Assembly (NCBI RefSeq): GCF_009914755.1
Contig: NC_060925.1
Reading direction: 5' to 3' (one strand)
From: the human T2T-CHM13v2.0 reference genome, Homo sapiens
Length of the DNA: 64,000 bases
This document shows, in pieces, positions 27,680 through 32,363 of the stretch. Below the pieces are notes generated by a model that saw nothing but the letters and a program-made list of their open reading frames with translations, ran no database searches and was not told where the DNA came from. The translations under genes were made by a program, and so were the position numbers. Every line of letters starts with the position of its first letter. Within the stretch, counting starts at the first letter, position 1.

Positions 27680-28380
27680 TTCGGCCTAGGAGGCCCTTCC
27701 CGCCCCTTTTCGCCTAGCTAACTCTTTCGGTACTCAACCACCAACTCCTAATCCTCCCTGGTCCCCCAAGTGGGCTAGGGGCTTCTTGGGAGTCCCTCGC
27801 ACTGCTCTAAGCATCCAGGCAGAGTCATTATTCCGGGTGCCAGGTTGCTCTTTTTCCAGCAGCCTTCAGGGGACTCCTGGCTGGGCGGAGTCTGTAGAGG
27901 CGCGCGGAGTCCTGGGAGAGCGTCAGATGTATTTCCTTTCCCTTTTTTCGCTCGTGTCCCGCCGGGTGGCGCTCACCACCTCCCCGGAACACGCGAGTCT
28001 CCTGTCGCGGTTCCGGTCGGAATTACCCCGTGGAGCACGCCGATATGGCTGCGCTGACACTGAGGGGTGTCCGGGAGCTGCTGAAGCGTGTGGACCTCGC
28101 GACGGTCCCGCGGAGACATCGATATAAGAAGAAATGGGTAAGGTCCGGCTGGGGGCGCAGGAGGGAAAAGTGAGGGTGGAAACTTCTCCAGTCTTTCCGT
28201 TTCCCGGCCCTCTAGAACGCCTAGCGTCTTTCCCAAGCACTCCACGGAACGTCCTTAGGCACCTCCCTCTCTCGTCTTTTCCGTCACCGCCTCTGTCCGC
28301 ACTCTATGTCCCGAGCGTTAGTGTCTTCCACTTGTTACGTCTGCAGTCTCCTGACTCCGCCCAAGTTGCGTCATCACCTT
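27680..28380 (+). promoter_or_regulatory. NSUN4: NSUN4 CpG-island promoter
   Basis: CpG-rich and TATA-less; GC boxes (ccgccc ~27700, gggcgg ~27883); ETS/GABP-type TTCCGG at ~27831 and ~28011. Confidence 0.8.
28045..28137 (+). CDS. NSUN4: NSUN4 exon 1 (mitochondrial targeting peptide, MAALTLRGVRELLKRVDLATVPRRHRYKKKW)
   Basis: ATG at 28045; 93 nt; donor GTAAGG. Confidence 0.95.
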
Positions 28381-28509
28381 CGCCTTCATTCTTTTAGTGA
28401 TGTCACTGTCTCTTGTTCCCCAGCTGTGTCCACCTACCTTTCTGTCCCCCACTCCCCCTTTTACTTCCCTCCCTCCCCTCCCCCTTTCCCTTGCCCATTC
28501 TTCCCCCAC

Positions 28510-31020
28510 ATGACTTCTCCTTTCCTCATTGATTTTCCAGCCCGGTCGCCCTCACCCCTCGGAAAATACCATAGCGACCTTGCCTGCACTCCTGGGTCTC
28601 CGCCGCCTTGCAGGAAAGGATTCAGCCCCTTCCTCAACCTCGAGCTGCCTCTGGCGACCGGGCAAGGTTACAGCGACCACCCTGTCCATACTGCCGGCCC
28701 AAACCCTGGCAAAAGGTGCAACGAATCCTCTCATCCTCTGGACTCTCCTTGCTTCTCCAGAGACCCTTTTTCTTGCCTCACTGGAAGCCCTGGAATTTCT
28801 TCTATGACCGGCACGCCCCCCTGCCCACCCCAGCCGATTCCCTCGCCACCTCCACCATCTCTTCCACCCCCACAACCTTCCTCGCACTCAGGGAGATGGT
28901 CTTTTGAGTCCTCTTCCCCACTCCTGGAAAGGACCTACTGCCGCTAGCCCTGCCACTCGGGTTCCCCACTCTCCAGCCCTTATTTTGAGCAGTTCAGCAT
29001 TCCGGGGTCACCCCCTCTCTGTCAGCGGACACCTTATTGCAGCTGGATGAGTCCCTCCAGAATGCGGCGTCCCTGTCTTCAAGGCACGTACTGTGACCAG
29101 CACACTAATCTCTGTTACTCTAGCGGATGGCCTTCAGCTTTTAGAACCAGCCCGGCAACCTCCTTTCCCCTTGCTCATCAGTCCCCGGGAACGAGCCCAG
29201 TGACCTCCCCTCAGCTCACTCATGTACCCTTGGAAACTGGACCCATGATTTCGCCTCCTCCTACACATAGGACCCCGGGAACTTGCCTCACGATTTCACC
29301 TCCTCTTGCTCGCCGGCCGGTGGAAACTAGTCCTATGGCCTCCCCAACCCTTTCTCACAGAGTTTTGGAAACTGGGCTGATGATCTCTCTGCCCTCTCAC
29401 TGGTTCTCAGGGAGAAGTTATAATGACCCCCTTCTCTCCCCAGCATCTTCCCCACCTACTGGCAGCTTTTACCATGGCAGCCTTAAGCCTCTAGACTCTT
29501 GTGAACCCAAACCACAGCTTGACCTGCCCCTTGAGAAAAATTGTTGTGGCTTCCCACTCTCTTCTCAGGCAGGCATGCCTGGCTCTCCCAGCTCACCTCA
29601 GGAGGGCTCTTATCATTACTCCCATCTTTCCTCAGAGGCCTACATACCTACCCCTGGGAGTCCTTGCTATGCCATCTGCCTGTGCCCCGGGAGTACTGAT
29701 TCTCCTTGCTCACCCCAGTCCCAGGCTCCCAGGAAGGCTTGCATTGAGTCCCTTCTCTCCTGGGAGGCAACTGGGAACTCTTACCTCATCCTAACCCCGG
29801 ACACCACAACTTCTGGTCCCCCCTGTTCCCAGGAACCATCTCGTCCCCATGGTCCTCATTCTGTCCTTTCCTTCCCTTCACCCCTGGGCAACCAGTTTAT
29901 ATCTCCACCCCAGTCACTTCCCCGCAGAAGCTATAATGAACCCCCTCTTCCCACTCCAGTTTCCCCCCAACCGAAGTCCCCTAAGTCCCCAGAGTTAAGA
30001 CAGTCACATACTCCCCACAAATGTCTCTCCCTAGTCAACACTCCCCAGCACACCCCTTCTGGCCAGCCCAAGCCCGCTAAGGCCCACACCTGTCCCCCAC
30101 CTCCCTCCTGCCTCTCTGGTCCTTCTTGTATGCAGCCATACATCACAACTCCTTCAAATTCCAGCCCCAAAGAACTTCCCCCAGGGACTACCTTACTGAC
30201 TGTGGTCCCTAGAGCTCTCAAAAGTGTTATCCCCACTTCTTTTCCCCTCTGCCTTCCTTGTGATCCTGTCTCGGCCAATAGTTATGCTCAGAGCAGCCGC
30301 CATGGACCCTCCATAGGGCCCCCCTGCAATACCCATATATGCTCTGTGGTTCCCTCCACCCCCCATCCCTGCCCACTGTCTGGCTCCCTCAATCATTCGA
30401 CAGGCCCCCCTCCCATTGTGCCCCTGTGTGACACCTATAGCACTCCCAGGGGCCCACCCCAACCTCGTTGTCAGCCTGTGATGCCTCCTTGTTCTACCCA
30501 CATCTATTCTTTTATCCCTTTGAGAACACCCTTTGATCCTCAAAGTTTACCCATTGTCCCCCGAGTCCGGGCCTACCCTGATACTGTCCCCTGTGGCCTC
30601 CATATCTACCCTGTGGCCTCTCAAGGCCCTTGCAAAGAGCCTCTGCAGATCCCCTACAGCTGCCCTTTGCCTTCATCCAAGGATTCCAGCTGTAGCACCA
30701 ATCCCAGCTGTAGTTCGACTATTATTAGCAAATGCCAGAGTAGTGACAGCGAGAGCAGGAGTTCCCACCAAAGCCAAAGCCGGAGCCAAAGCAAGAGTCC
30801 CCATGATGGCAGAAGTCAGAGCTGGAGCAAGAGGCATCATCTGAGCAGAAGTCCAAGTCAGAAAAGCAGTCCCTATCCTAGCAGAAGCTGGGGCCGGAGC
30901 AGTAATCCTCAACAAAACACAAGTCAGGGCCAGAGTGAGAGTCCCCAACTTAGCATAAATGAGCACCAGGGTGAGAGTCCCCAAATTAGCAGAGGTCAGG
31001 GCAAGAGCAAGAGTCTATGA
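28510..31020 (+). pseudogene. Intron-nested SHTAP-like (sperm head and tail associated protein) Pro/Ser/Cys-rich reading frame: 145 codons, TAG, then 690 codons, with a frameshifted tail to ~31221
   Basis: ORFs 28306..28947 and 29047..31020 share a frame, separated only by TAG 28945-28947; no transposon sequence; internal peptide repeats; mouse SHTAP is encoded from the Nsun4 locus (recalled). Confidence 0.75.
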
Positions 31021-31479
31021 TGGCAAAAGTCGGAACCGGAGCAAGAGTCCCCAACATGGCAAAGGTCAAGGCCAGAGCAAGAGTCCCCAACATAGCAGGA
31101 GCCAGAGCAAGAGTCCCAGCGAGGCAAAAGTCACAGAGCAAGAGTCCTCACCATAACAAGAAATGAGGGCCAGAGCAAAAGTTCTGACCAGACCAAAAAT
31201 CTAGGCCAGAGCAAGGCATAGATAGTAACAAGATTGCCAGCTATAGCAAGCATCCCAGCTGCAGCAACCAGGACCGACTTGTGCACTCCTCATCTGAAGT
31301 CTTCATTTCTCTTTTACTCTGCCTCCTTGTTCTTGTCCTCTTGTCCCCTGCTACCCCCATAGCAGTCATCCTAGAAGTCCCTGTTTTGGTTCACACCTCA
31401 AGATTCTGTGGGCCCTCCTTATCCAACCTTTCTGGGGTCTGGGAACTCTCCCAGCATGACCCTCAACCCTCTGATTCTA

Positions 31480-31630
31480 AGCATGGTGGTGCTAGTCACT
31501 GTGTGACGCTAGGTAAGTTACCCACATCTCTTCATCAAATTGAAATGTTGTTAATTTTTTTTTGTATCTTACTGAGCTATCAGTTGTAGTGCTCACATAA
31601 GCTAGTAGACATGAAAGTGCTTTGAAAATA
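31480..31630. mobile_element. MIR fragment
   Basis: ctagtcactgtgtgacgctaggtaagttacccacatctcttcatc...tgaaagtgctttg. Confidence 0.55.
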
Positions 31631-32018
31631 GAACTGTTCAGAAGAAAAGGGCCTTTTGCTTTTAAGTTCAAAGCTTCCCAGAGCCTCCATAGTTTCTCCT
31701 AATCTTCTGCAGGCTCTCCTCAAGAGTCCTCTCCTGAGCTCCCATATTCCTAAGTTCCTCTTTCTCCAAGGTCCCCCTTCTTGATGACCCCCGCACAGTA
31801 CCGTGAGAGTTACATCTTTATCTGACAACCCTGGGATGGGAAGGCCCACTCTCCACTACTTTTCCCTCTCACACTTCTCTGGCAGGCAGGCAGGATGCAA
31901 AAGCAGGAGTGGGCACTAGCTGGATCCAAGTTTGCCCCTAGGCTCTGAGGTGGGGGTCAGGTAGTAGGGGGTAGAGTCAAGACTGGGAAAACCAATAAGC
32001 CTGTCCTCTCTCTTTTAG

Positions 32019-32363
<345 letters not shown>

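What the first reader, a model, noticed from the sequence alone, without database searches (positions are those of the whole stretch)
28945..28947. Single in-frame TAG splits the nested ORF: candidate recent loss-of-function
Seen: ...TAC TGC CGC TAG CCC TGC CAC TCG.... The 33 codons after the stop are open and have the same composition (PCHSGSPLSSPYFEQFSIPGSPPLCQRTPYCSW) up to ATG 29047. Inference: a CAG>TAG or similar nonsense change. With 690 downstream codons still open, it is either recent (possibly lineage-specific or polymorphic) or bypassed by reinitiation or read-through.
Basis: partly seen in the sequence, partly recalled or inferred. Interest (0 to 1): 0.7.

Follow-up and report, generated by a model that had tools for sequence, protein, structure and literature searches.

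The report
Premature stop in human sperm gene
Inside the first intron of NSUN4 lies the human counterpart of the mouse sperm gene Shtap, and a stop codon cuts its reading frame after 145 of 836 codons; the stop is likely shared with bonobos, and the long frame behind it likely still makes a shortened sperm protein, which nobody has tested.

Summary
The TAG at 28945-28947 is real. [quoted passage not shown] The start and the 145 upstream codons are conserved in placental mammals. Of 39 homologues covering the site, 30 have Glu, including macaque and capuchin, so the change is GAG>TAG, not CAG>TAG. It is not the only lesion: an older frameshift at about 31017, whose end point is shared by the bonobo, orangutan and snub-nosed monkey models, removed 51 C-terminal residues. 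The stop arose after the split from Old World monkeys. The bonobo model starts at the ATG equivalent to 29047, so the stop is likely not human-specific (inferred; no ape DNA could be read). If shared, 657 codons staying open in both species is unlikely without selection (5-15% under assumed rates). I therefore favour a shortened protein from a downstream start (0.43) over a human-specific loss (0.27) or a shared young pseudogene (0.22). I saw no translation evidence. My searches found no description in print, but the original SHTAP paper was unavailable.

The parts
28510..28944 (+). SHTAP codons 1-145, from the conserved start ATG (weak context, C at -3)
   Evidence: 130 of 145 identical to macaque P0004; M-[TS]-[SNT] start motif in 22 of 27 hand-picked homologues that reach this end; context
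28945..28947 (+). Premature TAG at codon 146; ancestral residue Glu, so GAG>TAG (codon inferred from the protein)
   Evidence: E in 30 of 39 homologues covering the column, including macaque and capuchin
28948..29046 (+). 33 open codons between the stop and the next in-frame ATG; ancestral coding sequence
   Evidence: 31 of 33 identical to macaque, 28 of 33 to capuchin
29047..31020 (+). 657-codon open frame from Met180 (second start Met185 at 29062, A at -3); candidate shortened SHTAP
   Evidence: 98% identical to the 657-aa bonobo model P0001 with the same start and end; Met180 is M in only 5 of 41 homologues, I in 30
30490..30534 (+). Most conserved block (residues 661-675), intact in human
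   Evidence: mean column conservation 0.99 among 31 non-simian homologues
31015..31020 (+). Older 2-base frameshift that creates TGA 31018-31020 and removes 51 residues present in capuchin
   Evidence: frameshift-aware alignment to P0003; bonobo, orangutan and Rhinopithecus models end at the same residue
31019..31166 (+). Dead ancestral tail with one or two further frameshifts (near 31120 and 31136); ancestral stop TGA 31164-31166
   Evidence: three segments in frames 1, 0 and 2 reproduce the capuchin C-terminus; the penalised alignment gave a single net shift
28896..28907 (+). Three-codon out-of-frame uORF in strong start context, 140 bases before ATG 29047; possible reinitiation relay (inferred)
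28715..28977 (+). Annotated donor after 28715 and acceptor-like AG before 28977, both phase 2; a splice between them would skip the stop in frame (749 aa). Hypothetical
   Evidence: one of 16 acceptor-like sites among 164 AGs in the exon, so not above chance
28541..31512 (+). RefSeq alternative NSUN4 exon spanning the stop and the whole downstream frame; donor GT after 31512
   Evidence: annotation supplied with the finding; splice sites read

Best explanation
The TAG at 28945 ends the frame of the single-copy human orthologue of the sperm gene SHTAP after 145 codons, it likely arose in apes before the human-bonobo split, and the 657-codon frame behind it has likely been kept open because a shortened SHTAP is still made from a downstream start (untested). 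Shown: orthology by sequence and position, conserved start, Glu at this site in monkeys, single copy, older tail frameshift. Inferred: sharing with Pan, from the bonobo model's start. Predicted route: transcripts through the 28541-31512 exon are scanned past the weak ATGs at 28510 and 28804, through the three-codon uORF at 28896, and restart at ATG 29047 or 29062; or a splice enters behind the stop. The product would keep the most conserved block (residues 661-675) and lack the first 179 and last 51 ancestral residues.
For: Bonobo model P0001 starts exactly at Met180 although human and macaque both have in-frame Met1 and Met99 upstream. No named ape protein spanning residue 146 appeared as a cluster representative in three searches. 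If neutral on both the human and Pan branches, the 657 codons stay open with probability 0.05-0.15 under assumed rates. The Rhinopithecus model also starts just behind this region (Met185) with 652 open codons. The dead tail took one or two more frameshifts in about 150 bases while codons 180-836 took none. Upstream in-frame ATGs are in weak context. In mouse germ cells, loss of UPF2 did not raise premature-stop transcripts overall (PMC4858225, section 9 read), so such an mRNA may survive.
Against: No ape DNA was read; 24 of 59 homologue models start beyond residue 7, so a late start is common and need not mean a stop, and acceptor-like sites at 28834, 28977 and 29026 could explain the bonobo start. 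An intact ape protein could hide inside the macaque cluster (8 members, about 90% identity). Met180 is not an ancient start (5 of 41) and its context is weak. The human terminal branch shows 6 changes against 7.1 expected if neutral (ratio 0.84, no power), 2 of them at highly conserved prolines. Codons 1-145 show only 4 ape-branch changes against 8.9 neutral (P 0.058), which favours a very recent stop. The supplement of a PeptideAtlas audit (PMC12679747) has no NSUN4 or SHTAP entry. Reinitiation after a 145-codon uORF is inefficient (recalled).
Confidence: 0.43

Rival explanations
1. Human-specific loss of function: the stop arose after the split from Pan (fixed or polymorphic), the gene is a young unitary pseudogene, and the downstream frame is open only because little time has passed.
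For: On the human branch alone the frame stays open with probability 0.23-0.39 or more. Human-branch amino-acid changes are near the neutral number, 6 against 7.1, versus 4 in Pan. Codons 1-145 look constrained for most of the ape line (ratio 0.45). No second copy exists in this genome.
Against: The bonobo model skips Met1 and Met99 and starts at the first ATG behind the stop. No full-length ape protein was listed. An unnamed record cluster (P0054, 8 members, 32 contigs) ends at the same residue and differs from the window at 1 of 213 residues, so the stop is not private to this haplotype. Neither NSUN4 nor SHTAP occurs in the supplements of a survey of polymorphic pseudogenes (PMC11576641).
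Confidence: 0.27
2. Shared young pseudogene: the stop arose shortly before the human-Pan split and the whole gene has drifted since, as the last step of a slow decay in simians.
For: Signs of decay elsewhere: catarrhine tail frameshift, macaque model ending at 764, marmoset model ending at 116 aa, orangutan model starting at residue 379, an unnamed ape-like record starting at 658. Macaque-branch ratio 0.75 against 0.51 for the capuchin comparison. [quoted passage not shown]
Against: It needs 657 codons to stay open on both branches by luck (0.05-0.15) and less for any older date (0.02-0.08 since the orangutan split, under 0.01 since the monkey split). The orangutan start can be explained by an acceptor-like site at 29636.
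Confidence: 0.22
3. The full-length protein is still made by stop read-through, or the TAG is an assembly error.
For: The base after the stop is C, a mildly leaky context (sequence; rule recalled).
Against: The context TAG CCC T matches neither the UGA-CUAG nor the UAG-CAA-UYA read-through motif (motifs recalled). Independent records end at the same residue (P0054).
Confidence: 0.03

Closest known systems
[quoted passage not shown]
   Same: Embedded in the Nsun4 locus (passage in PMC12804707). 26 of 50 homologues carry this automatic name. Macaque and a murid model align over their length at 48% identity. Reported to bind the CAP domain of CRISP2 (passage in PMC10947329).
   Different: The human frame has a stop at codon 146, and the basic C-terminus kept by 29 of 59 homologue records is lost. 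No Mus musculus record was listed by name, so the link to the mouse protein rests on automatic names, position and rodent relatives. Binding to CRISP2 was not tested.
Human unitary pseudogenes of testis genes (TCAM1, TEX16, TEX21, TSSK5, CYCT, ADAM1B, ADAM3, ADAM5; PMC2864566)
   Same: Conserved mammalian testis gene, single copy, disabled in place on the primate line (passages).
   Different: Nested in and sharing exons with a housekeeping gene; one internal stop with 657 open codons behind it; not named in that paper's text (one search count) or supplement.
ZP3R/C4BPAP1 parallel loss in primates (PMC12590508)
   Same: [quoted passage not shown]
   Different: For SHTAP the pattern comes from a handful of automatic protein models, not from DNA; the macaque model lacks the tail.

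Membership tests
SHTAP orthologues | Full-length sequence similarity to proteins named SHTAP-like | tested here: met
   50 hits of 7126 candidates, 46-98% identity, 26 so named; collinear with window 28510-31200
SHTAP orthologues | Position inside the NSUN4 locus | tested here: met
   between NSUN4 exons at 28025-28137 and 32019 (annotation); mouse position from PMC12804707 passage; 10 of 50 hits are filed under NSUN4
SHTAP orthologues | Protein present in spermatids and sperm, binding CRISP2 | not testable with these tools
   no expression or proteomic data; absent from one PeptideAtlas audit supplement
Unitary pseudogene | No other copy in the genome | tested here: met
   1 match each for both halves in the own genome; one search used a stricter first look, so weak copies may be missed
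Unitary pseudogene | Frame-disrupting change against intact orthologues | tested here: met
   TAG at codon 146 and tail frameshifts against capuchin and macaque
Unitary pseudogene | Neutral evolution after the disruption | tested here: inconclusive
   human branch 6 changes against 7.1 neutral, Pan 4 against 7.1; protein counts with assumed divergences, no synonymous sites
Unitary pseudogene | No functional protein made | not testable with these tools
   657 codons remain open behind the stop; no ribosome or peptide data
Polymorphic pseudogene | Intact allele segregating in humans | not testable with these tools
   no variant data; not named in 7 supplements of PMC11576641
Programmed stop read-through genes | Read-through motif and a stop conserved across species | tested here: not met
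   39 homologues have a residue at the site; context lacks the recalled motifs

The most novel reading that the evidence does not exclude
Humans make an unannotated 657-residue sperm protein from inside NSUN4: SHTAP was trimmed at both ends in catarrhines, first losing its basic tail, then, separately in African apes and colobines, losing its first 180 residues after new downstream start codons had arisen, so a nonsense mutation became a start-site switch instead of a gene loss.
Probability: 0.3. Interest if true: 0.75.

Novelty: new member of a known kind. Interest (0 to 1): 0.52.

Why it matters
Either outcome fills a gap. If the downstream frame is translated, humans have a sperm protein missing from the selected coding annotation, and variants now filed as NSUN4 intronic or untranslated would be coding and relevant to male fertility screens. 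If it is not, SHTAP joins the primate sperm-gene losses, missed by earlier screens probably because it hides under another gene's name, and mouse work on the SHTAP-CRISP2 complex would not carry over to humans. One alignment of ape genomes and one look at testis ribosome data would settle it.

Tried and rejected
CAG>TAG origin: rejected, homologues have Glu. True start downstream of the stop: rejected as the ancestral state, since Met1 is conserved and Met180 is derived. Chance ORF: rejected. Backup paralogue: none found. Pfam: 0 families for 4 proteins. Atlas: no usable hit, no model; it holds the human sequence from Met185, which shows nothing about translation. Structure prediction was not run because the protein is Pro/Ser-rich low complexity. 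The multiple alignment misplaced column 1, so start conservation was counted by motif instead. Test of changes at conserved columns had too few events to separate branches. In-frame splice bypass 28715 to 28977 works on paper but is not above chance. The original SHTAP paper is not held. Literature: 13 papers hold 'SHTAP'; I read passages in 7 and none discusses the human gene's frame. NSUN4 with PhyloCSF, with 'gene loss' and chimpanzee, and with 'stop-gained' gave 0 papers each; some searches gave listings with no such report. No hit in text or supplement of PMC2134963 (supplement only 418 characters). The supplement of the ape genome paper PMC12058530 was unreadable and may bear on the claim. 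A review (PMC12724208, passages) calls SHTAP a coiled-coil protein with a disruption phenotype; the composition seen here does not fit a coiled coil and I did not rely on it.

Full report
Observation. The frame holds 1 stop where the other forward frames hold 17 and 42, and 300 shuffles gave at most 370 open codons.

Identity. [quoted passage not shown] A passage in PMC12804707 states that mouse Shtap is embedded in the Nsun4 locus, and one in PMC10947329 that SHTAP binds the CAP domain of CRISP2. The primary paper was not held. No Pfam family matches. Both halves match one place only in this genome.

The stop is a lesion, not a conserved boundary. The macaque model P0004 aligns from ATG 28510 straight across the stop at 90% identity: 130 of 145 before it and 31 of 33 just after. 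Of 39 homologues with a residue in that column, 30 have Glu, 5 Gly, 2 Lys, 1 Asp, 1 Gln. Macaque and capuchin have Glu, so the single-base route is GAG>TAG. A start motif like the human one is present in 22 of 27 homologues that I picked because they reach this end. Met180 (29047) is Met in only 5 of 41 and Ile in 30; the five are bonobo, macaque, two bats and one unnamed record.

It is not the only lesion. The capuchin protein runs 51 residues beyond the human end. A frameshift-aware alignment places a 2-base loss at about 31017 that creates the TGA, and the remaining tail is recoverable in three frames up to the old stop at 31164-31166 (one search found one net shift there, so one or two further events). 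The bonobo, orangutan and Rhinopithecus models end at the same residue as human, which dates the first shift to the catarrhine ancestor (inferred). The macaque model stops earlier, at 764.

Date of the TAG. It is absent in macaque, so it arose on the ape line. With recalled divergences (0.03 substitutions per site since the monkey split, 0.016 since orangutan, 0.006 since Pan) and assumed indel ratios of 1/8 to 1/14, at most one lesion in 836 codons has probability 0.001-0.015 if the gene had been neutral since the monkey split, 0.04-0.16 since orangutan and 0.45-0.65 since Pan. Ape-branch changes are 18 (25 with all unresolved sites) against 35.7 neutral in codons 180-760, and 4 against 8.9 in codons 1-145. 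Selection therefore lasted through most of the ape line. These figures rest on protein counts and recalled rates.

Shared with Pan? No ape DNA was reachable. The bonobo model (P0001, cluster of 91 members) is 657 residues and begins at Met180, although Met1 and Met99 exist in both human and macaque. Three searches listed no named ape protein that spans residue 146 (the last found only 3 proteins and is weak). Against this: 24 of 59 models start beyond residue 7, acceptor-like sites lie just before Met180, and cluster members could not be listed. I put sharing at about two in three. An unnamed cluster (P0054, 8 members, 32 contigs) ends at the same residue and differs from the window in 1 of 213 residues, so the stop occurs beyond this haplotype.

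How it most likely works. Full-length SHTAP cannot be made from this allele without read-through, for which the context is poor. If the stop is shared, both species kept 657 codons open, which has probability 0.05-0.15 without selection. The Rhinopithecus model shows the same shape (start Met185, 652 codons). That makes a retained shortened protein the best single reading. A route exists on paper: ATGs 28510 and 28804 have C or T at -3, a three-codon uORF in strong context lies at 28896, and ATG 29062 has A at -3. The RefSeq exon 28541-31512 also lacks ATG 28510. There is no AATAAA or ATTAAA in 31021-32020, so the mRNA probably continues into NSUN4 exon 2, and even an intact allele would have a junction far behind its stop; in mouse germ cells UPF2 loss did not raise such transcripts overall (PMC4858225, section 9). 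None of these steps is shown for this gene. The human branch alone looks neutral (6 against 7.1) but the test has no power, and a PeptideAtlas audit supplement has no entry. Weights: shortened protein 0.43, human-specific loss 0.27, shared pseudogene 0.22, read-through or error 0.03.

Comparison and novelty. It works like other primate disruptions of testis genes (PMC2864566 passages; ZP3R, PMC12590508 abstract and Results). It meets two tests for a unitary pseudogene (single copy, disrupted frame), but neutrality is inconclusive and absence of product untested, so I do not file it as one. Ten searches of the paper library and four readable supplement sets showed no report of the human stop; the primary paper, GENCODE and one ape-genome supplement were not seen. 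Verdict: real, a new member of a known kind, interest 0.52.

Noticed in passing
window 28400-28513: A 37-codon uORF starts 4 bases after the annotated transcript start 28396 and its TGA overlaps ATG 28510. Its first 18 residues match the N-terminal extension of the capuchin model (16 of 18), where it is in frame with SHTAP, so a frameshift separates the two species here.
   Followed up: partly
P0048, P0049 (white-tailed deer); window near 29994: Two models fuse the first about 400 residues of SHTAP to NSUN4 exon 2, implying an internal donor and a SHTAP-methyltransferase chimera without the mitochondrial leader.
   Followed up: no
window 30130-30132: Met541 is Met in 31 of 48 homologues and three short models start there; a candidate internal start for a small isoform containing the most conserved block.
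   Followed up: partly
P0057 (Callithrix), P0004 (Macaca), P0002 (Rhinopithecus), P0005 (Pongo): Other simian models are short at one end (116 aa; ends at 764; starts at 185; starts at 379), suggesting repeated independent lesions or alternative splicing.
   Followed up: partly
window 29083-29084: The annotated alternative NSUN4 exon 28396-29083 ends at a GC donor and carries the premature stop 136 bases before the junction.
   Followed up: no
P0050 (Bos taurus): After about 330 SHTAP residues the model continues in sequence that resembles, by eye, another frame of the repetitive tail.
   Followed up: no
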